A stretch of 64,000 nucleotides of DNA, taken from positions 106,145 through 170,144 of the IMG/VR virus record IMGVR_UViG_3300049489_001303. The stretch is one strand, 5' to 3'. The position numbers and the translations under genes were made by a program. The DNA comes from a virus. The notes under the pieces were generated by a model that saw only the letters and a list, made by a program, of their open reading frames with translations, had not been told where the DNA came from and made no database searches. Below are positions 3,388 to 63,879 of this stretch, piece by piece. Position 1 is the first letter of the stretch; the number at the start of each line of letters is the position of its first letter.

Positions 3388-4641
3388 CTACACCACTACT
3401 ACCCCCACAGAGGTGTTCTCTGTGGTTGATGGCAAGCCCGTCGGCTCTGCGTTAAGCGCTGCTCTTTTAGTCTGAGACCGCGCCGCTTTCTCTTCATAAA
3501 CGATCGCACGTTTCTGTGCGCTGTTTGCCGCCGCCGTGTTGTAAGCCGACTTGTCCCTGTTCAATAGTTTCTCAGCACGCTTACGTGCCATCATGTCGAT
3601 CTGTATCTGCTCAGTGACCTTGCCACCATACGAATCCTCGGGATCCTTACCAAGGAGCGTGGTGTTGGGGAGGGCCCCGACTCTGTAAGCAGGGATAGAC
3701 TCAAAGACCATCTCAGCTGTGACGTTTGTATAGCTGTCTACCTGCACAAACAGGTCTGCCCAGGCTTTCTCAGTATTGAAGGTGTGCTCCGTGCCTATGA
3801 GGTTACCCCCGGACAGGGCCCCGGCGTCCACATACCCGGAAATGGCGTTACGTGCAGACCCGGGAGACAGACAGAGGTTGCGAGCCTTCAATGCCGGATA
3901 CACCAGCTCCAGCTTCCGAAGAAGGATCGCCAGTGTGCGCAGTTGCTGCTCGCTGTAGTCAGCGTAGACCACATTTTCAAAAGAGTTCCCCCAGATAGCT
4001 TTATTGCCCGAGCTGCGCGGGTTATTGCGCACAAACAGGGCCTCCTCGAGAAGGATAGAAAGGCAGGTCTCCTGTACCTCAGCACAGTTCTTGAACGCGA
4101 TGTTACAGTCTCCCACAACATACAGATCCCCCAGCCGACTCACAAGGAAGTGCGCTGGTTGGGTGGCTGCCCTGCCCGCGTGCTTCTGAGATTCAGAGGC
4201 TATCCGGTAGCCATGAAACAGCGTGATCGGATCAGAGCCACGGGCAATATAAACGGTGTCAGCTTTGTACTCAACGGCAATAGCACCCTGCCCCGCGGAA
4301 GTGGAGTTAAGCCACCCCGTCCCCTTGGTATCGGCGTGCCACCCCTGCCCGAAAGACCCGAGAACAACGAAGGAGATCTCCCGGGAAGTGCTGTACGGTA
4401 TGTACATTGTGCTGCTGATTTCAGCCTGTATCAGCTTACAACTGGGTGGAAAACCCTCTGCAGAAATAACACTTCGCGGTGTCCCGCTGTATTTGCTGAG
4501 CGGCCCGGAGGACACGACGCTGTTATTCACGTACGCCGCGGCGTTGTCATAATGCTGCCGAGCCACCGCGTTCAGATAGACAGAATAGTCATCTGTCTTA
4601 TCCCGGGTGTAGGAGCTGCTCTGGCTGCGGGTATCCACCAT
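3388..4641 (-). CDS. Virion-associated protein with degenerate N-acetylmuramoyl-L-alanine amidase (Amidase_2)-like domain
   Basis: AHFLVSRLGDLYVV, CLSILLE and YSEQQLRTLAILLRKL follow the Amidase_2 motif order, but the Zn-ligand His residues appear absent. Confidence 0.55.
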   Translation of the reverse strand: MVDTRSQSSSYTRDKTDDYSVYLNAVARQHYDNAAAYVNNSVVSSGPLSKYSGTPRSVISAEGFPPSCKLIQAEISSTMYIPYSTSREISFVVLGSFGQGWHADTKGTGWLNSTSAGQGAIAVEYKADTVYIARGSDPITLFHGYRIASESQKHAGRAATQPAHFLVSRLGDLYVVGDCNIAFKNCAEVQETCLSILLEEALFVRNNPRSSGNKAIWGNSFENVVYADYSEQQLRTLAILLRKLELVYPALKARNLCLSPGSARNAISGYVDAGALSGGNLIGTEHTFNTEKAWADLFVQVDSYTNVTAEMVFESIPAYRVGALPNTTLLGKDPEDSYGGKVTEQIQIDMMARKRAEKLLNRDKSAYNTAAANSAQKRAIVYEEKAARSQTKRAALNAEPTGLPSTTENTSVGVVVV

Positions 4642-5369
4642 TAAAAGGTCCTCTTATGGGCTTCCAGGAGCCCATCCACCAGCTTGCGCCGCTTATAGCT
4701 GAGTTGCCCCTGAGTAAGCTTGTACTTGGCACATAGCTGCGCATTGTTCAGCTCTTTGGCGCCATCATAGCCCGTGATGTCCTTGAACATCTTTTTATCC
4801 TCGGCATCCAGTCCGTGGAAGAACATATCCATGACTGAGGCCCCGCCACTGCTGGGCATCTGTGCAGACTGGAAATCCATGGTGGCGCCGGCAGATTCAA
4901 CCAGTTCTCGGACGCCATAGGCCTTGCCGAACTCGATAACTTTTTTGTGCGACCATTTGAGGTGGTCGGCCATCTCCTCAGACGTAGGATCCCTGCCCAG
5001 ATCATCCACCAGCTGGTTCTGCGCCACGCTGTATGTATTGTAAAGAAGCTGCTTATTCTCAGGCAAACGTGCTACGTTCTGGTAGGGGTACACAGACCGC
5101 GACAGTTTTCTTAACCGTGAGGTAACATGCGTGCCGATGGACGCTCCGCGGTTGGGATCGTAGGTCTTGAGGGCTTCAGCCGTAAGCAGGCGAGCTTTGG
5201 CTTCCAGCGCTGGCCCGGGGACCGACGACTGCCACTTGCTGACCTCACGATAAATCAACGGCTGCAGGCGCGTCAGAAGAGCCTCGAGCTTATCAGCCCT
5301 TCCGGTCTGCTTCCACTCACGCCAGAGCGTAAGATCCTGGTCTTGTCGTGCACTAATGTCCATGATCAC
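4641..5369 (-). CDS. Phage sigma-70-family RNA polymerase sigma factor (FliA/WhiG-like)
   Basis: Region 2-like 'ALKTYDPNRGASIGTHV', region 3-like 'LGRDPTSEEMADHLKWS', and a C-terminal HTH-like segment. Confidence 0.85.
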   Translation of the reverse strand: MIMDISARQDQDLTLWREWKQTGRADKLEALLTRLQPLIYREVSKWQSSVPGPALEAKARLLTAEALKTYDPNRGASIGTHVTSRLRKLSRSVYPYQNVARLPENKQLLYNTYSVAQNQLVDDLGRDPTSEEMADHLKWSHKKVIEFGKAYGVRELVESAGATMDFQSAQMPSSGGASVMDMFFHGLDAEDKKMFKDITGYDGAKELNNAQLCAKYKLTQGQLSYKRRKLVDGLLEAHKRTF

Positions 5370-8300
5370 CCTTGGGGGTATTTGTATCCAGCTACACTCA
5401 GAACAATTTTACGATATTGCTCAAGCCTGTCGTCCCAATTATCACGTGTCTGAGCCATACCCGTCTCCGGGCCGGCCTTTTTAAACTCTTTAACCGGGGG
5501 GTATTCCTCCGCGGGACCCACGTTAGAGTAGGCTGGGTCGGGAGTATTACCCGGACCTTGCAACAATTTGTAGATTCGTGACCAGTAAACGGCCCCCTGG
5601 CTCCCCTTCGAGTCACCCGCCTCGCTGTAGAATCGCATCTCTTTAGCTCCCCGGACACTCTCAGCTTTGGCGGCGTCACCACCATGCCAGATACTGATAT
5701 AGTCCTGCAGGCTGCACGCCGGCCGCGCCGCAAAGCGCATGGCCATTTCATAGTTCTCATACAACGGCGCCAGCTTCGCAGTGGCCTTCAAGAAGCTGTT
5801 ATTTGTCAACTTCGACAGGTCACCCGTGAGTTCTATATCCTTCCCGGAATCATCCGACGCGATGAGAAGCTCTCTCCAGTTGAACACCGCCGGCTTCGTG
5901 GAATTGGCGTCGCCGTACAGGAATTTGGCATAGTTGGTTTGAGCGGCTGTCAGGTACTGGAAAGCCAGCGTAATATCCGGGATAACCTCTATGGGGTACA
6001 TATCAGCTTTTTTAATAGGTATCCTGACCTGATACTCCTGGGGCTCCGACGTAGGAGTATTGCTCACCCCCGTGAAGTCCGCATCGTTATCCCCGCTGTC
6101 CTCGATCACTTGCCTGACGGCCGCTGTCTCAGGGTCTCCTCCAGTGCCCGTCGAAACACTGGTGGGCTTAAGACCCGCCTCAGCTTGCTTCTTCCACATC
6201 TCAAGGTTGTCCGTATCATTCATAGCTTCTGTGTGGGCAACATTCGGGGGATCCAGATGCACCCACCGCTGAGTCCTGGCACTCATCTTACCGTTATTCG
6301 CTCCTCGGATATCCACATGTGTGCTGCCGCCACCGTAGGGGTAGTATCCTACGCCATGGCCTGTCGGGAAAGCATCCAGACAAAACAGCCAGAGCTCCTC
6401 CTGAGAAACACCCTCCACCTTAAAGTCGAGAGCTATAGCTCCTGAATGAAGCCCGCCCTTAGGGGCTCCATTCTCGTAGTAACCCTTGGTATTCTCTGTC
6501 GCTGCAAACCTATAGCCCGACACAATGTTTATAGCTTTACCGGGAAACCCCTGTGCCACGGTCTCAATGATGTTGATCGTTGCGGGGTTCATGGGTAATG
6601 CCCCCGGACGATCTGCTCTACAAAGGGTATTCCAGGTATCTTTCTGCTCCTGCGTCCAAGAGGCCCAATCGTTACCTGGCCACTCCAGCTTCTTACCTTT
6701 GCCCCTGATGATAGTCTTCTTGCCGGGCTTAGGAGCCTTGGTGGCAGCTTTTGCAGCCTCCCCCTGTTTCCCTGCAGTTTTTGTGGGGGGTATAGTCATC
6801 GTGATTAAACGCCCACCACCCCCGCCTTGAGCACTATCTGCCTGCACCTGCGCTGTTGTAGCGCCGGTAACCCCTGCAAACTCCTCCAGGCTTCTGGAGA
6901 AGGAGAAGGAGACCGTTGTCGTCATGCTACCCTGGGCGTTCAGGTTGTGGGACACCCCGGTGATGTACATGAAGATGTCCATCCCGGATTCATCTTTGTC
7001 GAAGATTACACCGGGGAACCCCGGTAGGACGTAGGGGTTAAAAGCCATATTTACGGTGCCGCTGCGCTCGCAGTAACGTCTGCGGTAGTACTCGTACTGA
7101 GCGTAATCCTCGAAGATCTGACTGAGGGGTCCATCAGATGTCTGAGGGCTCTCGACGTTACCAGTGCTCTTCAGATCCTGGGCAAGCACGAACATCCACT
7201 CCGGGGCACTGGCCTGAGCCGACGTAGGACCTATGAAAAACTCCTCGGGGAACAGAAGCATATTCTTGGAACTCTCGACACCACCTGTCAATAGCTGCTT
7301 CATGCGTTTACGCACAGGCACAGGATAACCAGTAACCAGAACTGCACTGATGAGCGCCGCACTGGATGCTGCTTCATCTGATTCCCCGAAGAGTATCGTT
7401 TTGGTTACAGAGTTCTCATTGAGATACAACCTTGTGGGCTGCCCGTTGTAATTCTCCGAGTAGCCCCAGTCTGTTATCTGGGAAGGGAAAAACACGTTGC
7501 ATACCGGAGGAAGCGCGAAATAAAGAGAGGGCTTCACATAGTGCGACGCAATCGTGGTGTTGGCATCCGCTTTGGCCCCCACCAGGCCATCGGCCATGTG
7601 TGTATCTTTGTTGAGCTGCACCGCGGGAGGCGCCGGCACCGCCAACACCTCCATATACATGTATCCCAGCACAGCCTGCAGCAGATCCCATGCGGACCCC
7701 GAGTTACCAACGCTCTCACCAACACGGGTCTGCAATACCTCCAGGATCTTCATCTCCTGTGCTGCTTTTATGAGAGGGAAGCACCCACCATTATCATAGT
7801 TACTGGGGCTATCATCGATCCCCGGGAAGCCGGCCCAACGCTTATAGAAGCCGGTCATCAAAAGCCACCTACCAAAGAAGTTGCGCCCGGGAACCGATGC
7901 CGCGGTCTTGGGGAGCTTTACCTCAAAATTGGAGATGCTGTTATTATCCCCTGCCACAACTTCAGGAACATCCGTGTTACTGGTACTGATCTCGGACAGT
8001 AGCGCTCTGAACACATTCAACACAAACTCGATGGGCCGCTTGATGGGGTTACCCACAGAATTGCCATCGGGCTTTGTCAGCCCTTCATAAAACAGGCTGG
8101 CCGGATATAGTACTTTCGGCTCTGTAAAGTATGACGCATCGGAATTGCCCACAGCACTAAGAGCCTGAACCATGTCATCTACTGACGATATGTAGAAGAA
8201 CTGCAGCTGTCTGAAAATAGCCGCCTGTCCCAGGCAGTTCAGCTGCATCGATCGGCCACGGGGGTTGTTCTGATATGAAATACCCACAATCTCATATTCG

Positions 8301-44113: not shown

Positions 44114-44413
44114 ATGACTGTGGACATTTATAAAGAGGGTGAAGAGAATGTGATCGCTGAGATTGCCATGCACACGGGGAACCTACTTATTGTAGACGAC
44201 GTAGCATTGGCGGGGCTTCCAGCAGGAACTAACTTCGTGAGCCTGCATGTGGGTTCAGTGCAGCCCCAATGGGTTCCCGTGATCGCTACGCGGCAGGGGG
44301 GAAAAAGATACATTCTGATCTCCATCGACGACGCCATGGACATGCCCACGCAACTGACTGAAATAGTCCCTATTGAAACCCCGGAAACAAACGAAGATGC
44401 AACCGATAAATAA
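44114..44413 (+). CDS. Hypothetical protein
   Basis: GGAGG RBS, 99 aa. Confidence 0.55.
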   Translation: MTVDIYKEGEENVIAEIAMHTGNLLIVDDVALAGLPAGTNFVSLHVGSVQPQWVPVIATRQGGKRYILISIDDAMDMPTQLTEIVPIETPETNEDATDK

Positions 44414-44981
44414 CCCCCTGAGTATTGTGGGCATCGCCGGAGGGTTGAACTGCGGTAAAGGTGCTGTCGCCGCTGTGTTCCACGGCCAAGGATATATGGA
44501 ACGAAACTTCTCAGATCCCCTCAAGCGTATTGTCCGTGAGCTTTTCAACGTTTCCACCAAAGAGTTATGGGGCCCCAGCCAGAACCGATCCCCCGAGGTG
44601 CGTGCCATGCTGCAGGAGTTAGGCACAGACTACGCCCGTAAGTTCCGGCCCAACATCTGGGTGGATAAGATGGAAGAGTCCCTTTCTGCCTTTGCCTCCA
44701 GTGGCATCAAGGGGTACAAAGGGGTCGTTGTAGCTGACATACGATTCCCGAATGAGATTGAGCTGCTACGCTCCATGGGTGGAAAGATGATACGTATCCG
44801 TCGCCCGGGAAACTGCTCCCACTTGCCCACGGAGCTGGGCAAACACAGCAGTGAAACTGCCATAGATAATATGCCTGACTCGGCCTTCGACTACATCATA
44901 CAAAACGACGGAACACTGGAAGACCTCCAGAACACCGTCCTGAGCATAATCGAAGACATCAATGCCCTTCATATCAAATGA
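44397..44981 (+). CDS. Deoxynucleoside monophosphate kinase (phage type)
   Basis: GIAG...GK P-loop, FSDPLK, R.MLQELGTDYAR, DIRFPNE, HSSE and IIQNDGTLEDL. Confidence 0.9.
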   Translation: MQPINNPLSIVGIAGGLNCGKGAVAAVFHGQGYMERNFSDPLKRIVRELFNVSTKELWGPSQNRSPEVRAMLQELGTDYARKFRPNIWVDKMEESLSAFASSGIKGYKGVVVADIRFPNEIELLRSMGGKMIRIRRPGNCSHLPTELGKHSSETAIDNMPDSAFDYIIQNDGTLEDLQNTVLSIIEDINALHIK

Positions 44982-48836: not shown

Positions 48837-49052
48837 ATGAGTCACAAAAGAACTTTACAATCCAGGTTCCGCTCCGACAAGAGATGGCGCACGTCGTCCT
48901 TTGCCGGGTCCAAAGTTATTCTGTTGGGGGTGGGGGCTGATGATCGTTTCAATGGTGAGACGTTGAGTGTGTACACGTGGTTGGTGCCATGGCTGTTTCA
49001 TGAAATGGAGCCGATCTCTACGGAGAGGTTCACTGCCAGGAGACTGGCGTGA
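48837..49052 (+). CDS. Hypothetical protein heading glycine-rich array A
   Basis: AAGGA RBS; TGGTATAA motif upstream at 48796. Confidence 0.55.
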   Translation: MSHKRTLQSRFRSDKRWRTSSFAGSKVILLGVGADDRFNGETLSVYTWLVPWLFHEMEPISTERFTARRLA

Positions 49053-49288
49053 TTCGCAGGTATGTGGACTACCCCCGACAACTCGGGACGCTGGAGATGG
49101 GTGGGGGCATGGGGACTTACTCGGAAACACTACACTTCACAGGCACGGTCAAATCTGGGGGAGGATCCGGTGGTGGGTATTCCGGGATGCTGGGTAATGC
49201 TTATGGCACCGGCCCTTGCGGCCTGGGCGGCTCCAGATTTGGAAATGGGACCTGTATGAGCATTGCCCCCGATGAGTACTTCCAATGA
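49049..49288 (+). CDS. Glycine-rich microprotein A1
   Basis: 79 aa; GTGA/ATGA overlaps; GGGSGGGYSG. Confidence 0.65.
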   Translation: MIRRYVDYPRQLGTLEMGGGMGTYSETLHFTGTVKSGGGSGGGYSGMLGNAYGTGPCGLGGSRFGNGTCMSIAPDEYFQ

Positions 49289-49377
49289 GAGATGAACACG
49301 AGCCTTGGTTCTGGGGATGCGTTGCAGCGCTGGTGCTGGTGCAGCTCTTTTATGGGGTGAGAGCGTGTCTCCAATGA
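49285..49377 (+). CDS. 30-aa single-TM peptide
   Basis: MRDEHEPWFWGCVAALVLVQLFYGVRACLQ; exactly fills the gap with ATGA overlaps at both ends. Confidence 0.55.
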   Translation: MRDEHEPWFWGCVAALVLVQLFYGVRACLQ

Positions 49378-49568
49378 GAACCCTGAATGAGTATATCCGC
49401 TCAGAGAGTCCAAAATCCACTGGCCGCGGTGACGGTTTCGACTTCGGGATCGGGTTGGGTACCGGTATAGGCTTTGGGATCCCCTTTGGTCTTAATGACG
49501 GTTCTGGTAAGGGCTTCGGCGGCCAGGACCTCTGGGGTCTGGAGATCGATGAAGAGGAGATGTTATGA
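49374..49568 (+). CDS. Glycine-rich microprotein A2
   Basis: MRTL...GRGDGFDFGIGLGTGIGFG. Confidence 0.7.
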   Translation: MRTLNEYIRSESPKSTGRGDGFDFGIGLGTGIGFGIPFGLNDGSGKGFGGQDLWGLEIDEEEML

Positions 49569-49804
49569 GGGCCATTCACACGTATCCTGTGGGGGCTGAA
49601 ACATCCTACAGCGATGGCAATGGTGCTGACTTCGGTTTCTGGGACTACGGGGGTGGTGCTGGCGATGGCCGGAGCTACGGCGGTGATGGTTTTGGTGATG
49701 GCTTTGCTTTCGGTGATACTGATGGGGACGGCTACGGGGACCTTAACTGCGATAATCGTGCAGAAGGGCCCGAAATATATGAAAGTGGGGAGTTTGTTAC
49801 CTGA
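49565..49804 (+). CDS. Glycine-rich microprotein A3
   Basis: GGAG RBS; GDGFGDGFAFGDTDGDGYGD. Confidence 0.7.
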   Translation: MRAIHTYPVGAETSYSDGNGADFGFWDYGGGAGDGRSYGGDGFGDGFAFGDTDGDGYGDLNCDNRAEGPEIYESGEFVT

Positions 49805-50010
49805 TGCGAACCCTCACAGACAACCTCCCCCACCGCGGAGATGGGATAATGCCCTACCTGGATACGCTCTTCGGCGATCGTTTCGGAGGTGGCTGCGGCT
49901 ATGGGGCGGGTGGCTATGGCCTTCCGGATATGTTCTTCCCTATGGAGGATCCGGACACTGAGTTTACACACGCATACGGCCCGGCGCTGAGTGCGTGGGA
50001 GGTACAATGA
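49804..50010 (+). CDS. Glycine-rich microprotein A4
   Basis: MRTL..RGDG..GGGCGYGAGGYG; TGATG overlap. Confidence 0.7.
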   Translation: MRTLTDNLPHRGDGIMPYLDTLFGDRFGGGCGYGAGGYGLPDMFFPMEDPDTEFTHAYGPALSAWEVQ

Positions 50011-50228
50011 AAACAGTGACAGGTGAGAGTGTTTACCGGGGAGACGGTCACTCTGGCGGCTTTGGGTGGGGCTTTACCTCCGGTAGGGGCAGTGGGTGCG
50101 GCGCCATGAATCCTGTTCAAAGGGGGAATGGTTACGGCTGCGGCGAACCCTTTGGCAATCACGCCGGAGACTCCGTTTTCGACTACCTCCCCCATGGTGA
50201 CGTTATAGATATGACGAGGACACAATGA
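50007..50228 (+). CDS. Glycine-rich microprotein A5
   Basis: GGAGG RBS; MKTVTGES..RGDG..GGFGWG. Confidence 0.7.
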   Translation: MKTVTGESVYRGDGHSGGFGWGFTSGRGSGCGAMNPVQRGNGYGCGEPFGNHAGDSVFDYLPHGDVIDMTRTQ

Positions 50229-50446
50229 GAATAGTAACAGGTGAATCCCTCCCCTCCCGCGGGGACGGGTGTGAGGGTGGCTTTGGGTGGGGATATAACA
50301 AGCACGGTGGTGGGGGTATGAGCAGATTCTACGTCGGCCAAGGGTCCGGCTACGGGTTCGGTTTCGAATTCGGTAACTCTGTGGGAGGTAGCTTCAGCTC
50401 CTATTGGCCCATCGGCGCTAACCCGATAAGAGGGGATTTGCAATGA
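50225..50446 (+). CDS. Glycine-rich microprotein A6 (close paralogue of A5)
   Basis: MRIVTGES..RGDG..GGFGWG..GYG.G..FGN. Confidence 0.7.
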   Translation: MRIVTGESLPSRGDGCEGGFGWGYNKHGGGGMSRFYVGQGSGYGFGFEFGNSVGGSFSSYWPIGANPIRGDLQ

Positions 50447-50670
50447 GCATCCGAACATACTACGTGGTTGAAACCCTCAGGAATCACCTCTACATCAACA
50501 TTGGCACAGGCATCGGTAATGGTTTTAATTTCGGATCCCACGATGAAACATACAGCTTTGATGGGGATGGGCAAGGTTACGGATATGGTTCGGACCTGGG
50601 CCTGGCTCCCCGTGAGCACATACTGTCGTATTGTTTCCCCGCAATTAGAAAGGGTTTTGAGCATGAGTAG
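50443..50670 (+). CDS. Glycine-rich microprotein A7
   Basis: GTGIGNGFNFG..DGDGQGYGYG; ATGA overlap. Confidence 0.65.
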   Translation: MSIRTYYVVETLRNHLYINIGTGIGNGFNFGSHDETYSFDGDGQGYGYGSDLGLAPREHILSYCFPAIRKGFEHE

Positions 50671-51304
50671 TGACTTGTATAAGAAATGGTTCGAGGTGGG
50701 TTCCACTACAGAACCCATTAATCATGCGGTGGCTGAAGAGACGCTGCGTAGAGCCTACGCCGCGGCGGGCTTGAGTGAGTTGGAAGAGATAACCTGGGTA
50801 GACTCGCCGATGGGTGCGATGTTTGCGGCCTCGAGAATATGGCCGGGAGACGAAAAGGGTGGTCTGGCTTATACACTGACGCAGATGGTCTGCTACGGCC
50901 AGCTGGACGCTGGGTGGCACGCCTTTTATGAGCGGTTGGCGAATCATATCGTCGATCGTGCCGGCAGTCTCATGCTCTGCCATGAGCTGGCCACGGTGGC
51001 GCATTGGTGGTGGGCGTTCAAGAAGCATGCGATCATGTGCGAACGTCCCATCGTCTTTTGCGTGGATGAGGCGCTGCGTCCCCACTGCACCACCGGCCCG
51101 GCGATTCGGTATCGTGACGGCTTTGAAATATACGCCGTTGGGGGCGTGAGGGTGCCGCAGGTTGCAATACTGAAACCCACGGAGATCACCGCTGAGATGA
51201 TTATGGGACAGGGGGATATCAAGGTCAGGAGTGCCATGCGGTCACTCGCCCCGGCGATTGTGGGGCTGTTGAGTGCAGAGGCTGACACAGGCGACACTTT
51301 ATGA
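50663..51304 (+). CDS. DUF6745-like phage protein
   Basis: YGQLDAGW, WWW..CERP..HC.TGPAIRYRDGFEIYA.GGVRVP. Confidence 0.75.
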   Translation: MSSDLYKKWFEVGSTTEPINHAVAEETLRRAYAAAGLSELEEITWVDSPMGAMFAASRIWPGDEKGGLAYTLTQMVCYGQLDAGWHAFYERLANHIVDRAGSLMLCHELATVAHWWWAFKKHAIMCERPIVFCVDEALRPHCTTGPAIRYRDGFEIYAVGGVRVPQVAILKPTEITAEMIMGQGDIKVRSAMRSLAPAIVGLLSAEADTGDTL

Positions 51305-51319
51305 GCTACAATTAACGGC

Positions 51320-51739
51320 ATGGATACTCTACCTGTTTACATAGGACTTCTCGCTTTCTTCACTCAGATATGGGTTCACGAGGGCAGCCATCTGGCCATG
51401 GTGAAGATCCTGGCGCCGGAGTCACGCATCAGAAGCTTCAAACCTTGGCCCCATATTCAGAATAAGCGTCTGTATATGGGGCGTTTGGTAGTGGACAATC
51501 CCACCCCGCTAAGGGGATTGCATCTGTGCTACTTCCTGGCCGCGCCGCTGATTGGGGCCACAATAGCACTCTGCATCTACGGGGCGTTGGGGGACCTGTT
51601 TGTACTGGCCTGCATTTCCCCACTGATCGATATCGCTTTCTGGATGCTTTGTGCTATGCTCCTACCCGCAGACCCCGATGAGACAACAAACGACGGGCCA
51701 CGCTGTATGGCCGCTTGGAAGGATAAAGATGCACGCTAG
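51320..51739 (+). CDS. Membrane protein with HExxH (M50/zincin-like)
   Basis: WVHEGSH within a hydrophobic helix; LAAPL and a downstream Asp. Confidence 0.5.
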   Translation: MDTLPVYIGLLAFFTQIWVHEGSHLAMVKILAPESRIRSFKPWPHIQNKRLYMGRLVVDNPTPLRGLHLCYFLAAPLIGATIALCIYGALGDLFVLACISPLIDIAFWMLCAMLLPADPDETTNDGPRCMAAWKDKDAR

Positions 51740-58221: not shown

Positions 58222-58252
58222 CTGGGCATTGAACTGCCCGAGGAGAATGACA

Positions 58253-59236
58253 ATGAAACTGAAACACGTTTGGATACTTTGGATCCTGGTCGCCGGCTGT
58301 GATGCTGGCACGATTGGAAGTCTTGAAGAAGACACTGGCACCGAAACAGATGTGGATACGGACAGTGATGCGGACAGTGATGCGGACAGTGATGCGGACA
58401 GTGATGCGGACACTGATGCGGACGCTGACACTGATGCCGACACTGATGCCGACACTGATGCCGACGCTGACACTGATGCCGACACTGATGCCGACGCTGA
58501 CACTGATGCCGACGCTGATGCTGACGCTGATGCTGACAGCGACATTGATACGGACACTGGCGTTGACACTGTAGACACTGAATCGGAAACGGACACTGGC
58601 GTTGATACCGTTGACACCGGGGCAGATGCTGATACCGACACGGACAGCGACACTGACAGCGACACGGACAGCGACACTGACAGCGACACGGACAGCGACA
58701 CTGACAGCGACACGGACAGCGACACTGACAGCGACACTGACAGCGACACTGACACAGATGCGGATGTGTGCACCCTCAATGAGACTGAGACCTTTGACAC
58801 CAACCTCGGGGAGTGGGTGCCGACGGCGGTGTTCCCCACCATCTACCCATCCCACTGGGCTTGGTCGGGGGATACCGTCAACTACACCGGGGAAGCTCGG
58901 GCAGTGGGTTCTTCCTATGGCGTGGACACGCTCGTGTCTCCGCTCTACACCGTTGGTGGGTGTGGTAGCGTGACGATCCAGTACTCCCAGAAGTACACCT
59001 CATCATCCTCAGCTGGCTACGCCATAATGTCGTTCAGCGTTGGGGATAGTGGGGTGTGGGTGGAGGCGTGGAGGGTTAGTGGGTTGGCCTCTGCGGCCAC
59101 GCCGTACACAACCATAACCAAGCGGCTCTTCGATTACCTGCCCGCCGGGACACAAACCTTCCGAATCAGATTCGGGCTGAACACCTCGCTCGCAATTCTG
59201 CGGGTGGACAACGTCCATGTTCGGGGTGCTCTATGA
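58253..59236 (+). CDS. Lipoprotein with long Asp-[Ser/Thr/Ala] repeat stalk and C-terminal beta-sandwich
   Basis: MKLKHVWILWILVAG-C lipobox; DSDADTD repeats; jelly-roll-like C-terminus (FRIRFG..VDNV). Confidence 0.8.
   Translation: MKLKHVWILWILVAGCDAGTIGSLEEDTGTETDVDTDSDADSDADSDADSDADTDADADTDADTDADTDADADTDADTDADADTDADADADADADSDIDTDTGVDTVDTESETDTGVDTVDTGADADTDTDSDTDSDTDSDTDSDTDSDTDSDTDSDTDSDTDSDTDTDADVCTLNETETFDTNLGEWVPTAVFPTIYPSHWAWSGDTVNYTGEARAVGSSYGVDTLVSPLYTVGGCGSVTIQYSQKYTSSSSAGYAIMSFSVGDSGVWVEAWRVSGLASAATPYTTITKRLFDYLPAGTQTFRIRFGLNTSLAILRVDNVHVRGAL
58355..58765 (+). repeat. Coding tandem 6/12-bp repeats (D-x dipeptides)
   Basis: GACAGTGATGCG, GACACTGATGCC and GACAGCGACAC[GT] arrays. 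Confidence 0.9.
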
Positions 59237-59445
59237 AAACCCTACATCCCGCGGCCCTGGACACTCCCAGCTTCAACCTCACCAAGGAAACCAAGAATGG
59301 TCGTGGGGATGGAGCTGGGTTTGGGTTCCGTTATGGGGCTGGGATGGGGACTGGAACCCTGGCGGATAACAGCCTCGACGGTGATGGGGGCGGGAAACCC
59401 CTGTCACGGGGAAACACTGTGAACGGTTGGGGGCCGGAGAAATGA
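59233..59445 (+). CDS. Glycine-rich microprotein B1
   Basis: MKTL..GRGDGAGFGFRYGAGMGTG. Confidence 0.7.
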   Translation: MKTLHPAALDTPSFNLTKETKNGRGDGAGFGFRYGAGMGTGTLADNSLDGDGGGKPLSRGNTVNGWGPEK

Positions 59446-59675
59446 AAACCCTCAACATTCTCAGCCCCGATTCCAATGAAGACCGCTTTATCAGTAGAAT
59501 GCGTTGTGAACACATGGGAGAGGGATTTGGTGACGGCAATGAGTTTGGACGTAGCGACTTTGCGTCAGTTGGGAATGGGCGGGGTTATGGGGTTCCAACG
59601 CATCGAACAGTCATGATTGCGTTCCGCGGGGACGGCCACTCAGAGGAGCTACGCCGTCCGTACATTATCGAATGA
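59442..59675 (+). CDS. Glycine-rich microprotein B2
   Basis: MKTL..GEGFGDG..GNGRGYG..RGDG. Confidence 0.65.
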   Translation: MKTLNILSPDSNEDRFISRMRCEHMGEGFGDGNEFGRSDFASVGNGRGYGVPTHRTVMIAFRGDGHSEELRRPYIIE

Positions 59676-61884: not shown

Positions 61885-62363
61885 GCTTCCATCACCTCCC
61901 CCGACGCGCCGGCCATACCACGCACGTTGAGATCCAGCAATCGGGTCTGCACTGTATAGAAAGCTTTCGCCTCATCGGGATCCAGGAGAAGCATGGACTC
62001 TCCTTTGGCTATGGCTTCTGCCACTTTGATGAACAGCTTGACCTCACTGTCCGTTGCGCCGCTGCGGTGTAACAGGATTGCAAGGTTGGCCGCTTCCTCG
62101 GGGGTGTACCGCGGCATGGGCTCGTACTGAATATCACTCTCCATCCTGGCGGCCATCACCACAAACAGCTTTGTGAGCGTGAGTTGGTCTTCAGCGTCCA
62201 AGCCCTCGGTGGGTGGGTCGTCACCCCGCAGGATCGCTGGGAGGTATTTGTCCACCACTGCCATTTCCTTCTCGTCAAACCCACAATCGACGCAGATCTT
62301 CCTGAGCCTGGGGATGAAAACCTCCAGCTCCGACGGATCGGTGGGTATCAATTTATTTTGCAT
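61881..62363 (-). CDS. Hypothetical protein
   Basis: Acidic helical ORF in operon. Confidence 0.6.
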   Translation of the reverse strand: MQNKLIPTDPSELEVFIPRLRKICVDCGFDEKEMAVVDKYLPAILRGDDPPTEGLDAEDQLTLTKLFVVMAARMESDIQYEPMPRYTPEEAANLAILLHRSGATDSEVKLFIKVAEAIAKGESMLLLDPDEAKAFYTVQTRLLDLNVRGMAGASGEVMEA

Positions 62364-62793
62364 CTCTCTTCCCTTTCGCATTTAACAGCAAATGCAAACC
62401 CTTTAAAAGCTTGAGTGCTTTGCGGCACGCCTCCTCGTCGAACATCCCCACGTGGCAATCATCTATTGAGATCCCCATGCGAGTTGCCAGCCACCTGTAG
62501 GCGTGATCACGCCCCCACCCAAGTCTCCCCCATAGAATGTCGAAACGATCATGTACTCTGGAACGAAGAGCACGCAGCTTTCTATCAGCCAGCGTGCCCA
62601 TGGGCTCTACCCCCGTGAAGTTAAACTCAGCGTTTTTACGGTGTGCTTTAACAAAAGCTTCGCAAGGTACACAGACCCAGTAATGGGATCCACTTTGCGC
62701 TTTGACAAACGCTGGCATAAACTCAGCAGCGAAGAAATCAGCTTCCTTCTGACAGTAGGGACAGAGCACTATCGGCATGGTCACGTTCTGCAT
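62353..62793 (-). CDS. DUF3268-like zinc-finger protein
   Basis: CPYC..WVC.PC.A.V.AH..PMGTLA..LR.LR..H..FD.LW..AY.WLA..MG..CHVGMFD. Confidence 0.85.
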   Translation of the reverse strand: MQNVTMPIVLCPYCQKEADFFAAEFMPAFVKAQSGSHYWVCVPCEAFVKAHRKNAEFNFTGVEPMGTLADRKLRALRSRVHDRFDILWGRLGWGRDHAYRWLATRMGISIDDCHVGMFDEEACRKALKLLKGLHLLLNAKGKRDAK

Positions 62794-62929: not shown

Positions 62930-63027
62930 GGCCACTTCTCCTTTCTGTGATCGAGTAGAACATACAGCGCACCCACCACCAACAGGGCGAGGGTGCACAG
63001 TATGTATTCGCGTTTTGTAAGTTTCAT
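62911..63027 (-). CDS. 38-aa single-TM peptide
   Basis: MKLTKREYILCTLALLVVGALYVLLDHRKEK...; ATGA overlap with C1. Confidence 0.55.
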   Translation of the reverse strand: MKLTKREYILCTLALLVVGALYVLLDHRKEKWPCSKDL

Positions 63028-63308
63028 GATTGCACTCTCAACTCCAGGCCGATGGGTGGTGAAGCAGCCCCACTCAGAGCGACACCGTTGCCCCTCAAGT
63101 GTTCATACCGCACGGAAAATCGCAGGCTCGACTCTATCACGCCGTAGCCTGAGCCATCTATCACACCACTGCTTCCCGTTCCTTTGCCGTTACCTCTGTC
63201 GCTGTTATGTATCCCCACAGAGTTACAATCTCCCATCCCATAGCCCTCTGCTATCTGCGTGGAGTGGCCTGTTGTCATCAGCTCGCTGAAGCTCAGGATC
63301 AGTTGCAT
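63024..63308 (-). CDS. Glycine-rich microprotein C1
   Basis: MQLI..RGNGKGTGSSG..RGNG. Confidence 0.65.
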   Translation of the reverse strand: MQLILSFSELMTTGHSTQIAEGYGMGDCNSVGIHNSDRGNGKGTGSSGVIDGSGYGVIESSLRFSVRYEHLRGNGVALSGAASPPIGLELRVQS

Positions 63309-63586
63309 CTGTACCTCACCAGCGACTCATAGGTGCTGTTGCCGTTACCATTGTGAGCAAACGCTGCAAGGCCGCCGCCTGTTCGGGAGCCATACAGGTC
63401 ATAGTTGTGGCGCTCTGCCCAGGGGATCCTCGCAGTGATAAACGCCCAATCCTCATCGTAGCGACTCCCATCCATACCGCCCCCGCTTATGCGCCGGTCA
63501 GTGAGTAGCAGATAATTCAAGTCTCCTACTCCACTGTACAGCCCTATGGCTTGTACACGTGGGTCTGAGCCAAATGTCAGTTGCAT
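63299..63586 (-). CDS. Glycine-rich microprotein C2
   Basis: MQLT..DPRV..GGGL.AF..GNG..LVRYRCN. Confidence 0.7.
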   Translation of the reverse strand: MQLTFGSDPRVQAIGLYSGVGDLNYLLLTDRRISGGGMDGSRYDEDWAFITARIPWAERHNYDLYGSRTGGGLAAFAHNGNGNSTYESLVRYRCN

Positions 63587-63879
63587 CTGTACTTCTCCAG
63601 TTTAAACTCACCTTGACTCTGTCCATCGCCGCTGGAACCGAATGCTGTGATGCCGCCGCCCAGCCCGCCGCCAGAGAACTTCAACTGCCTGGCGGTGGAT
63701 CTGCCGCTTATGTGCTCTACCAATTCAAAGTTTTCATAGCCTAGACCTGAACCCATGCCGGATCCCCCAATCTGAATGCTGGTGTTAAGTCCTAAACACA
63801 GCATATAAAAATCGTTCCCTACCCCGCAACCCAAGACCGCTACACGGGGATCTAAGTCATTGTCTTGTGTCAACAGCAT
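63577..63879 (-). CDS. Glycine-rich microprotein C3
   Basis: MLLT..DPRV..GGGLGGGITAFGSSGDGQSQG..YRCN. Confidence 0.7.
   Translation of the reverse strand: MLLTQDNDLDPRVAVLGCGVGNDFYMLCLGLNTSIQIGGSGMGSGLGYENFELVEHISGRSTARQLKFSGGGLGGGITAFGSSGDGQSQGEFKLEKYRCN

What the first reader, a model, noticed from the sequence alone, without database searches (positions are those of the whole stretch)
49049..50670. Array A: seven translationally coupled glycine-rich microproteins
Seen: seven ORFs of 64-79 aa joined by ATGA/TGATG overlaps. Most start M-[RK]-[TAI]-[LIV], four carry RGDG, and all have G-x-G-[FYW]-G tracts interleaved with divergent segments. A5 and A6 are clear paralogues (TGES..RGDG..GGFGWG). 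The same type recurs in arrays B and C, giving at least 13 members in this window. Inference: a diversified paralogue library of small Gly/aromatic proteins. Candidate roles are polyglycine-II scaffolds with variable loops, amyloid/condensate formers, decoys or anti-defence peptides, or precursors for an enzyme encoded elsewhere. I cannot assign a known function.
Basis: partly seen in the sequence, partly recalled or inferred. Interest (0 to 1): 0.8.

Follow-up and report, generated by a model that had tools for sequence, protein, structure and literature searches.

The report
Phage array of glycine-repeat mini-proteins
A 170-kb uncultured phage carries at least 17 tiny, real, fast-diverging genes for floppy acidic proteins with glycine at every second residue and a shared five-residue start; six sit here just before an unstudied gene (DUF6745) and ten surround a chaperone/protease pair, but what they do is untested.

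Summary
Six of the seven ORFs (A2-A7) belong to one family. The evidence is leave-one-out profile scores against composition-matched shuffles, best codon score in the annotated frame, Shine-Dalgarno-like sites and ATGA/TGATG junctions. Family paralogue pairs outside array A give dN/dS of 0.25-0.36. A1 is a coupled Gly-rich ORF but not a detectable member. The whole 170-kb phage holds 17.

The proteins have a conserved N-terminal cap, M-[RK]-[TI]-[ILV]-T, often followed by G-[DN]-G. The core has glycine at period 2, is mostly acidic, and is predicted disordered. Nothing like them was found among 1.8 billion representative proteins, apart from two look-alike phage mini-genes.

Ten members are interleaved with a MoxR AAA+ ATPase and a zincin-VWA protein. 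Three related operons in other phages carry other mini-gene arrays in the same places. Array A is translationally coupled to a DUF6745 gene that lacks its usual repeat tract. In other phages that position holds detached repeat mini-genes.

My best reading (about 0.35) is a library of cap-tagged variable clients or modules for these constant partners. This scan has noted similar Gly-X arrays and DUF6745 libraries on other phage DNA. I found no paper that describes either.

The parts
48837..49052 (+). 71-aa ORF heading the operon, not Gly-rich, no family
   Evidence: SD-like site at -12. GTGA overlap with A1. No Sm-like or other fold found.
49049..49288 (+). A1: 79-aa Gly-rich ORF with GTG start, coupled but not a detectable family member
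   Evidence: Leave-one-out z = -0.4. Best codon score is in this frame.
49374..49568 (+). A2: 64-aa member (cap MRTL, RGDG, long Gly-X run)
   Evidence: z 4.9 with 0/200 shuffles. Codon log-likelihood 0.35, best of six frames.
49565..49804 (+). A3: 79-aa member, very acidic (net -13)
   Evidence: z 8.2. ATGA overlap with A2. SD-like GAGGAG at -9 to -11.
49804..50010 (+). A4: 68-aa member with the most typical cap (MRTLTD..P.RGDG)
   Evidence: z 10.1. TGATG junction with A3.
50007..50228 (+). A5: 73-aa member, paralogue of A6
   Evidence: BLASTP A5/A6 E 3e-12. z 8.7.
50225..50446 (+). A6: 73-aa member
   Evidence: z 9.6. AlphaFold2 pLDDT 44 with no secondary structure.
50443..50670 (+). A7: 75-aa divergent member without the cap
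   Evidence: z 3.9 with 0/200 shuffles, the weakest supported member.
50663..51304 (+). DUF6745 protein (213 aa), lacking both the internal repeat tract and the C-terminal ~90 residues of its relatives; its start overlaps A7 by 8 nt
   Evidence: Pfam PF20530 E 1.3e-18, profile positions 9-118 of 206. Alignment with 16 relatives. Model pLDDT 80 with no solved-fold match.
51320..51739 (+). 139-aa membrane-type protein with an HExxH motif (possible zincin, weak evidence)
   Evidence: Pfam DUF3267 'putative zincin peptidase' E 0.041, below the cut-off. Motif HEGSH seen in the translation.
59233..59445 (+). B1: 70-aa family member, ATGA-coupled to the preceding 335-aa lipoprotein-like gene
   Evidence: z 7.7..
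59442..59675 (+). B2: 77-aa family member, ATGA-coupled to B1
   Evidence: z 7.2..

Best explanation
SHOWN. Array A is a polycistronic, translationally coupled run of real genes. Six of them (A2-A7) belong to a 17-member family confined, as far as the databases show, to this phage. Each product is 49-83 aa. It has a short conserved N-terminal cap (M-[RK]-[TI]-[ILV]-T, then commonly [DG]-x-x-P-x-x-G-[DN]-G). The core has glycine at every second residue and free variation elsewhere (Asp, Phe, Tyr, Asn and Cys are commonest). The proteins are mostly acidic and are predicted to be disordered.

INFERRED. The family is a library of cap-tagged variable clients or modules that serve constant partner proteins encoded beside the arrays. 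The primary partner is the MoxR AAA+ ATPase plus zincin-VWA protein pair, whose operon holds ten members. There the cap, or a Gly-flanked Asp presented to the intact VWA metal site, would be the recognition element. The zincin domain would process the mini-protein, and the ATPase would remodel or load it. Array A is a second copy of the library, placed so that its translation runs straight into a repeat-less DUF6745 gene. In other phages that position is occupied by libraries of detached repeat mini-proteins. Array A may therefore supply variable modules to DUF6745 as well or instead. The rapid, paralogue-by-paralogue diversification suggests a role at a host-phage interface rather than in core replication.
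For: Real genes. In all 17 members the annotated frame has the best codon log-likelihood of six frames. Synonymous-codon scores are mostly near those of long phage genes: five of the 17 (B2, D5, D6...: B2, D5, E2, E3) are negative, against 0.09 +/- 0.06 for genes and -0.1 off-frame. SD-like motifs lie 8-13 nt before most starts. In paralogue pairs, third codon positions are the least conserved, and dN/dS is 0.25-0.36 where dS is not saturated; those pairs are D2/D3, E2/E3 and D2/D4, none from array A, where A5/A6 has saturated dS.

Family. Leave-one-out HMM z = 3.9-10.9 with 0/200 shuffles for 17 of 19 candidates. The cap columns are conserved in 12 members, while the rest of the sequence has identity 0.13 once G:G pairs are excluded.

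Partner link. Four members lie upstream of the MoxR gene and six lie between it and the zincin-VWA gene, all on one strand and coupled. The VWA domain keeps its D-x-S-x-S metal-site motif.

Orthologous operons in other phages. (1) L018 has a MoxR 46% identical (E 5e-78) and a zincin-VWA 38% identical. One coupled mini-gene sits between them and five sit behind, with (x-Ala-Ser)n cores and a shared cap. (2) L006 has a zincin-VWA 39% identical, followed by a coupled Gly-Tyr/Gly-Asp mini-gene. (3) L067 has a MoxR 43% identical, with coupled mini-gene arrays on both sides.

DUF6745 link. The start codon overlaps A7. Relatives L013, L015 and P0016 carry an internal four-residue repeat tract that this protein lacks. 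The repeat-less relatives L002-L004 are followed by coupled arrays of 56-68-aa repeat mini-genes.

Precedent in print. Zincin peptidase plus 'small, rapidly-diverging protein' modules are attached to vWA-MoxR systems (PMC7159879, section 24). A MoxR-vWA pair with an N-terminal metallopeptidase in jumbo phages was proposed to process virion proteins (PMC7824862).
Against: No binding, cleavage or expression datum exists for any member. Array A lies about 50 kb from the MoxR/zincin-VWA operon. Array B has neither partner beside it.

Only 3 related operons (L018, L006, L067), besides this phage, show mini-gene arrays. 47 of the 48 other zincin-VWA loci in IMG/VR (L018-L065) have none, so the association holds at best for one sub-clade.

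The mini-genes beside DUF6745 in other phages are helical four-residue repeats. They show no detectable similarity to these period-2 Gly-X proteins. The usual His-motif partner of DUF6745 is absent here.

The L018 phage has no DUF6745, and five DUF6745 phage records have no DUF2201_N. The two partner systems are therefore not generally linked.

In the published peptide-processing systems the conserved, released part is C-terminal. Here the conserved part is N-terminal.
Confidence: 0.35

Rival explanations
1. Self-assembling material. The (Gly-X)n cores would adopt silk-like or cross-beta sheets, or would form condensates, and so build a fibrous or gel-like structure. This could be a virion coat, an extracellular matrix or an intracellular compartment. 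The paralogues would tune its properties, and the MoxR chaperone would keep the proteins soluble until needed.
For: There is a strict period-2 glycine pattern with aromatic or aliphatic residues between the glycines, as in fibroin-type beta sheets (my own knowledge). The look-alike P0012 hits the Pfam keratin-associated and sulphur-globule-protein composition models. A MoxR-vWA pair is needed for tail growth in an archaeal virus (cited in PMC7824862).
Against: Asp is the commonest residue between glycines (35 of 153 G-x-G triplets, the tally over 17 members), and most members carry net charge -2 to -13. This disfavours beta aggregation. No model shows strands. The related operon L018 uses an Ala-Ser-rich core instead, and L067 uses ordinary sequence, so the Gly-X chemistry itself is not conserved.
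Confidence: 0.15
2. DUF6745-only reading. Array A is this phage's version of the 'detached repeat library' seen beside repeat-less DUF6745 genes in many phages. The mini-proteins would dock on the DUF6745 core to give many variants of one complex. The members near MoxR/VWA would be secondary copies.
For: The position and coupling of array A to a DUF6745 that lacks the tract. The same layout appears in L002-L004. This scan holds many earlier notes of that layout.
Against: There is no sequence or periodicity relation between Gly-X cores and the four-residue tract. 11 of the 17 members lie elsewhere in the genome, ten of them in the MoxR operon. This DUF6745 also lacks its C-terminal third and its usual His-motif partner.
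Confidence: 0.2
3. Exported peptide precursors: Gly-rich class II microcin-like bacteriocins, or RiPPs with a conserved leader and a hypervariable core. They would be matured by host machinery and used against competing bacteria or for lysis or signalling.
For: The leader-plus-variable-core layout. Size (58-83 aa) and Gly content resemble class II microcins, and the start M-R-T-L-T of A4 resembles the colicin V leader (both from my own knowledge). Cys is present in most members.
Against: The phage has no C39 peptidase, ABC ATPase, radical SAM or YcaO gene. The cap ends G-[DN]-G rather than G-G/A, carries Pro at -6 and is one residue short of the double-glycine leader register (by inspection). 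The acidic, Asp-rich cores are unlike known microcins. No immunity-like gene was recognised.
Confidence: 0.07
4. Polyglycine-II scaffold with variable loops, like the gp38 adhesin tip of T-even phages or the snow-flea antifreeze protein (one of the first reader's options).
For: Gly-rich motifs alternate with divergent segments. The phage encodes many large tail-fibre proteins.
Against: Glycine recurs at lag 2, 4 and 6 and is depleted at lag 3, which does not fit a three-residue helix. No structure was predicted. There is no Pfam or PHROG tail-adhesin match. The arrays are not next to the tail-fibre genes.
Confidence: 0.03
5. Translated but largely functionless expansion. A stop/start-RBS-cap cassette duplicates easily and low-complexity cores drift. 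Under this reading the arrays are tolerated passengers.
For: A 44-nt stretch, 95% identical, spans the D2 and D3 starts, which shows recent junction duplication or conversion. The last codons of most members double as the next gene's ribosome-binding site. The family is absent outside this genome.
Against: dN/dS is 0.25-0.36 between paralogues. The cap is kept across four arrays that have diverged to saturation at silent sites. Analogous arrays sit in the same operon position in three other phages.
Confidence: 0.1

Closest known systems
Peptide-processing modules attached to vWA-MoxR conflict systems (zincin metallopeptidase plus small, rapidly diverging precursor; Kaur, Burroughs, Iyer and Aravind 2020, PMC7159879)
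   Same: A MoxR AAA+ ATPase, a vWA protein, a zincin-type peptidase domain and small fast-diverging proteins are encoded together. One short part of the small protein is conserved and the rest is free.
   Different: These are phage-borne and multi-copy (17 genes in four arrays). The conserved part is N-terminal, not a released C-terminal FxSxx/RxD/acidic peptide. The peptidase is fused to the vWA protein. There is no radical SAM or AP-ATPase effector. Array A itself is 50 kb from that operon.
MoxR / metallopeptidase-vWA chaperone pair of jumbo phages (Iyer et al. 2021, PMC7824862)
   Same: The same gene pair (AAA_5 ATPase; DUF2201_N zincin plus VWA) in a large phage.
   Different: That paper proposes processing of virion structural proteins and mentions no mini-gene arrays. 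Only 1 of the 48 other zincin-VWA IMG/VR loci I inspected has such an array (L018). L006 and L067, which also have them, were found by other routes.
Detached four-residue-repeat mini-gene libraries beside repeat-less DUF6745 genes
   Same: A coupled array of diversified ~60-80-aa mini-genes abuts a DUF6745 gene that lacks its internal tract.
   Different: Those mini-proteins copy a four-residue repeat. These are period-2 Gly-X, predicted disordered, and not detectably related. Here the array is upstream rather than downstream, and the His-motif partner is missing.
Class II (Gly-rich, double-glycine-leader) microcins such as colicin V (my own knowledge)
   Same: Small Gly-rich gene-encoded peptides with a short conserved N-terminal segment.
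   Different: The leader register and G-G cleavage site are not met. There is no C39/ABC exporter in the phage. The cores are acidic rather than hydrophobic or neutral.
(Gly-X)n structural proteins: silk fibroin, keratin glycine loops, sulphur-globule proteins
   Same: Glycine at alternate positions with aromatic residues. There are weak composition-driven Pfam hits to keratin head, KRTAP and SGP models.
   Different: No homology. These proteins are tiny, acidic, cap-tagged and encoded as diversified arrays in a virus.

Membership tests
DUF6745-associated detached repeat mini-gene library | Adjacent DUF6745 gene that lacks the internal repeat tract | tested here: met
   PF20530 E 1.3e-18. The alignment shows no tract where L013, L015 and P0016 have one.
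DUF6745-associated detached repeat mini-gene library | Mini-proteins are free-standing copies of the four-residue repeat | tested here: not met
   Glycine periodicity is 2. There is no 12-nt DNA repeat beyond 2 copies. There is no resemblance to the L002-L004 mini-proteins.
DUF6745-associated detached repeat mini-gene library | Small His-motif partner gene next to DUF6745 | tested here: not met
   A profile built from four partners (L002, L003, L013, L016) finds nothing in the 170-kb genome (best E 2.5).
vWA-MoxR-linked peptide-processing system (PMC7159879) | Zincin peptidase, MoxR ATPase and vWA protein encoded with the small proteins | tested here: inconclusive
   Met for the ten members at the contig start (DUF2201_N E 2.9e-13, AAA_5 E 3.1e-9). 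Array A has only a weak HExxH neighbour (DUF3267 E 0.041).
vWA-MoxR-linked peptide-processing system (PMC7159879) | Small, rapidly diverging precursor protein | tested here: met
   Identity is 0.13 outside the cap once G:G pairs are excluded. dS is saturated between most paralogues.
vWA-MoxR-linked peptide-processing system (PMC7159879) | Conserved C-terminal peptide (FxSxx, RxD or acidic type) released by the peptidase | tested here: not met
   Conservation is N-terminal. The C-terminal similarity (…D/E-T-Q) coincides with the next gene's ribosome-binding site and start. Cleavage itself is not testable here.
Class II microcins / double-glycine-leader bacteriocins | 15-18-residue leader ending G-G, G-A or G-S with hydrophobic residues at -4, -7 and -12 | tested here: not met
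   The cap ends G-[DN]-G, has Pro at -6 and has variable or charged residues at -4 (by inspection).
Class II microcins / double-glycine-leader bacteriocins | Dedicated C39-peptidase ABC exporter | tested here: not met
   No PF03412 or PF00005 match in the phage, with positive controls. A host-encoded exporter cannot be excluded.
RiPP precursors (thiazole/oxazole, sactipeptide and similar) | Modifying enzyme (YcaO, radical SAM) in the locus or genome | tested here: not met
   No PF02624 or PF04055 match in the phage.
Polyglycine-II domains (gp38 adhesin tip, snow-flea antifreeze protein) | Glycine at every third residue, or Gly runs able to form packed three-residue helices | tested here: not met
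   Lag-3 glycine is depleted (0.13 against 0.23, z -4.4). Lag 2 is enriched (0.52, z 13).
Polyglycine-II domains (gp38 adhesin tip, snow-flea antifreeze protein) | Predicted or solved PGII bundle | tested here: inconclusive
   The AlphaFold2 model has pLDDT 44 and no regular structure, from a shallow 15-row alignment.

The most novel reading that the evidence does not exclude
Large phages may run a general 'constant machine plus hypervariable mini-protein library' strategy. In it, short caps address dozens of fast-evolving low-complexity peptides to a MoxR/zincin-VWA processing machine and/or to DUF6745. This phage would show the libraries are interchangeable between the two otherwise unlinked machines, because one capped Gly-X family sits beside both. 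The processed peptides would act as a diversified set of effectors or decoys against host defences or surfaces. That would be a protein-level counterpart of a variable-region repertoire.
Probability: 0.12. Interest if true: 0.85.

Novelty: new variant of a known kind. Interest (0 to 1): 0.6.

Why it matters
Tandem arrays of tiny low-complexity genes are usually discarded as annotation noise. Here they pass composition-corrected homology and codon-level tests, so they are part of the phage proteome.

One capped family lies beside two different uncharacterised constant genes: the MoxR/zincin-VWA pair and DUF6745. Related phages fill the same operon slots with chemically different mini-proteins. 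Together these facts give a concrete, testable hypothesis for what the phage MoxR/zincin-VWA pair acts on and for what DUF6745 does. Neither question has an experimental answer in the papers I could search. If the mini-proteins are processed clients, the system would be a compact model for how viruses generate and deploy peptide diversity.

Tried and rejected
1. Complex prediction of the DUF6745 protein with A6. The verdict was 'no answer' (score 0.01). This is neither support nor evidence against binding.

2. Structure of A6 with the family alignment and the Atlas record. Both gave no confident fold, so no fold search was made.

3. DUF6745 model (pLDDT 80) searched against solved structures with Foldseek (best E 0.4) and VIA-align wide (best Z 3.3). 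No usable match, so no function could be inferred.

4. Homologue searches. The word-indexed 5.8-billion-protein search returned only this genome's own members. The exhaustive profile search of 1.84 billion representatives added only two look-alike mini-proteins and two spurious long proteins.

5. Pfam and PHROG scans of all members gave only sub-threshold composition hits to keratin-type models.

6. Sm-like partner lead from earlier scan notes. The 71-aa ORF ahead of A1 shows no Sm-like or other fold, and the proteins next to the MoxR operons have no Pfam family. The lead was not confirmed.

7. 'Detached linker' idea. Many zincin-VWA relatives have a variable Gly-X linker between their domains, and ours is among the shortest. 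However, L019 and L057 have equally short linkers and no mini-genes, while L018, also short, does have them. The idea was dropped.

8. Diversity-generating retroelement. No template/variable repeat pair matches any array.

9. Circular joining of the contig ends. The reading frame stays open across the join, but the sequence beyond it does not match VWA relatives. The zincin-VWA gene is therefore cut by the contig end, and array C is not shown to follow it.

10. RGD-to-VWA metal-site idea. It is attractive, but the L018 and L067 mini-proteins lack any such motif, so it is kept only as a sub-hypothesis.

12. Promoter and terminator scans were at chance level.
Full report
CONTEXT. The window is the last 64 kb of a single 170,144-bp virus contig. 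IMG/VR classes it as linear and CheckV estimates it 95% complete. The minus-strand block from 1 to about 41 kb encodes very large tail-fibre-type proteins with collagen-like segments. The finding lies in a region of small accessory genes.

OBSERVATION. The junctions are as follows:
- A2/A3, A4/A5, A5/A6 and A6/A7 overlap as ATGA.
- A3/A4 overlaps as TGATG.
- A1 overlaps a preceding 71-aa ORF as GTGA.
- A7 overlaps the next gene's ATG by 8 nt.
- A1 and A2 are separated by 85 nt and are not overlapped.

The start motif M-[RK]-[TAI]-[LIV] is present in five ORFs, RGDG in four, and a G-x-G-aromatic-G tract in six. A5 and A6 are clear paralogues (E 3e-12).

IS IT MORE THAN COMPOSITION? I collected 19 candidates across the genome. 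Besides arrays A and B there are two more runs at the contig start, on the minus strand. Four ORFs lie upstream of a MoxR-type ATPase gene and six lie between it and a zincin-VWA gene. Each candidate was scored against a profile built from the others and compared with 200 shuffles of itself.
- Seventeen candidates score z = 3.9-10.9, and no shuffle reaches the real score.
- A1 (z -0.4) and one ORF at the far end (z 0.7) fail.
Two of the three are paralogues of each other and form a separate small family.

So the window holds eight demonstrable members and the genome seventeen.

ARE THEY TRANSLATED? No expression data could be obtained, so the evidence is indirect but consistent.
- For every member the annotated frame has the highest codon log-likelihood of the six frames. 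Scores based on synonymous-codon choice alone lie near those of long phage genes for most members, though four of the 17 are negative; they are not systematically at off-frame values.
- Purine-rich Shine-Dalgarno-like motifs lie 8-13 nt upstream of most starts. They are often made by the last codons of the previous gene, which explains the recurrent …E/D-T-Q ends.
- In paralogue pairs the third codon position is always the least conserved. dN/dS is 0.25-0.36 where silent sites are not saturated; these pairs (D2/D3, E2/E3, D2/D4) come from the contig-start arrays, and A5/A6 in array A has saturated dS.

ANATOMY OF THE PROTEINS. Twelve members share the cap M-[RK]-[TI]-[ILV]-T. It is usually followed by [DG]-x-x-P-x-x-G-[DN]-G. 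Downstream, glycine recurs at lags 2, 4, 6 and 8 and is depleted at lags 1 and 3. P(G at i+2 | G) is 0.52 against 0.23 in shuffles, z 13. The residue between two glycines is most often Asp (35), then Phe, Tyr or Gly (14 each), Asn (10) and Cys (9). Most members are acidic, with net charge down to -13. Apart from Gly:Gly matches, identity outside the cap is 0.13. There is no DNA-level tandem repeat. There is no template/variable repeat pair that would indicate a retroelement-driven mechanism; the only repeat is a 44-nt, 95% identical stretch across the D2 and D3 starts. AlphaFold2 with the family alignment gives pLDDT 44 and no secondary structure, and the ESM Atlas model has pLDDT 0.29. The period-2 pattern does not fit polyglycine-II helices, which need period 3.

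RELATIVES ELSEWHERE. The family is not found outside this genome in 5.8 billion clustered proteins or in an exhaustive profile search of 1.84 billion representatives. Two small look-alikes did appear.
- P0012 is 89 aa with a Gly-Tyr/Gly-Asp core. It is encoded directly behind, and coupled to, a zincin-VWA gene 39% identical to this phage's.
- P0013 heads a tandem trio of coupled Gly-X mini-genes with conserved ends in another phage-like contig.

THE MoxR / ZINCIN-VWA CONNECTION. The ATPase (AAA_5, E 3e-9) and the DUF2201_N zincin-VWA protein (E 2.9e-13; HExxH and D-x-S-x-S motifs intact) are the pair that Iyer et al. noted in jumbo phages and proposed to process structural proteins (PMC7824862). 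I fetched 48 related zincin-VWA loci and 8 MoxR loci, with these results:
- L018, the closest relative (MoxR 46% identical, E 5e-78; zincin-VWA 38%), has one coupled mini-gene between the two genes and five behind them. All share a cap and have an (x-Ala-Ser)n core instead of Gly-X.
- L067 (MoxR 43%) has coupled arrays of 48-73-aa ORFs of ordinary composition on both sides.
- The other 47 of the 48 zincin-VWA loci have nothing comparable.

Within one sub-clade, therefore, the operon keeps slots for arrays of small, fast-changing proteins whose chemistry is free. That fits best if the small proteins are clients or substrates recognised through a short handle. Kaur et al. describe an analogous arrangement in bacteria: a zincin peptidase and a 'small, rapidly-diverging protein' attached to vWA-MoxR systems. 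There, however, it is a conserved C-terminal peptide that is released (PMC7159879).

THE DUF6745 CONNECTION. The gene that A7 runs into is DUF6745 (PF20530, E 1.3e-18), and it is the only one in the genome. Aligned with 16 relatives, it lacks the internal tract of four-residue repeats seen in L013, L015 and P0016. It also lacks the C-terminal ~90 residues. Three repeat-less relatives (L002-L004) are followed by coupled arrays of 56-68-aa mini-genes made of that repeat. This scan has noted that layout in many other phage genomes, and no paper in the library mentions DUF6745. Array A thus sits in the position of such a library, but its members are unrelated to the repeat. The His-motif gene that accompanies DUF6745 elsewhere is absent. 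The DUF6745 model is confident (pLDDT 80) but matches no solved fold. The two partner systems are not generally linked: the L018 phage has no DUF6745, and five DUF6745 phage records have no DUF2201_N.

INTERPRETATION. What is shown is a real, phage-specific, rapidly diversifying family of capped, acidic, probably disordered Gly-X mini-proteins. They are expressed from coupled arrays at four places in the genome.

What is inferred, with confidence about 0.35, is that they form a library of variable clients or modules for the constant proteins encoded beside them. The primary partner would be the MoxR/zincin-VWA machine, with cap or Gly-flanked Asp recognition followed by processing or loading. 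For array A, DUF6745 may be a partner as well.

The rivals, with my confidence in each, are:
- a DUF6745-only module library (0.2);
- self-assembling silk-like or condensate material (0.15);
- tolerated, drifting expansions (0.1);
- exported microcin-like or RiPP precursors (0.07), for which the phage has no C39, ABC, radical SAM or YcaO gene;
- polyglycine-II scaffolds (0.03).

NOVELTY. Earlier notes of this scan describe Gly-X mini-gene arrays in other large phages. One notes that they follow an ATPase and protease/vWA pair. So the phenomenon recurs, but I found no published description of it. What this locus adds is that one capped family lies beside both the MoxR/zincin-VWA pair and DUF6745 in a single genome, and that orthologous operons swap the chemistry of the mini-proteins.

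Noticed in passing
window 63024-63879 (- strand): Three coupled 94-100-aa Gly-rich ORFs. Two are paralogues of each other (E 1e-10), both ending Y-R-C-N, and the third is unrelated. They are not members of the Gly-X family. They lie at the contig end, on the same strand as the MoxR operon at the other end.
   Followed up: partly
window 58229-59236 (+): A 335-aa protein with a lipoprotein-type signal (…L-V-A-G-C), a long Asp-Thr/Ser-Asp-Ala repeat linker and a C-terminal domain with no Pfam family. Its stop overlaps the start of family member B1 (ATGA).
   Followed up: partly
window 51320-51739 (+): A 139-aa multi-pass membrane-like protein with an HExxH motif just after DUF6745. It has only a sub-threshold match to DUF3267 'putative zincin peptidase' (E 0.041).
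   Followed up: partly
L001 1-999 (- strand; genome start): The zincin-VWA gene is cut by the contig start just after its G-G-G-G-T-D-M motif. The frame stays open across an artificial join of the two contig ends, but the sequence beyond the join does not match relatives. The contig is therefore not simply circular at this point.
   Followed up: yes
L018 3831-6337: Six coupled mini-genes flank a zincin-VWA gene. Their cores are built of Tyr/Asp/His/Cys-Ala-Ser triplets and they share a common start. Several end in R-L-R-G-G; that ending coincides with the next gene's ribosome-binding site, so it need not be a ubiquitin-like tail.
   Followed up: partly
L058, L043, L061, L051 (zincin-VWA genes, about 4000-5400): Many zincin-VWA proteins carry a variable low-complexity Gly-X linker (for example a Gly-Gln run) between the peptidase and VWA domains. 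The HExxH-to-metal-site distance ranges from 140 to 483 residues; it is 189 in this phage.
   Followed up: partly
L005 6579-8922: A DUF6745 gene is followed by three 215-250-aa paralogues with a conserved N-terminal domain and Ala-rich periodic tails. This is another kind of diversified neighbour of DUF6745.
   Followed up: no
It is the only nucleotide-level repeat among the arrays and suggests recent duplication or gene conversion at the junction.
   Followed up: partly
window 62353-62793 (-) and 44373-44981 (+): A DUF3268 zinc-finger protein (E 4.7e-27) and a deoxynucleoside monophosphate kinase (phrog_139, E 2e-42). Both are ordinary accessory genes of the region.
   Followed up: no
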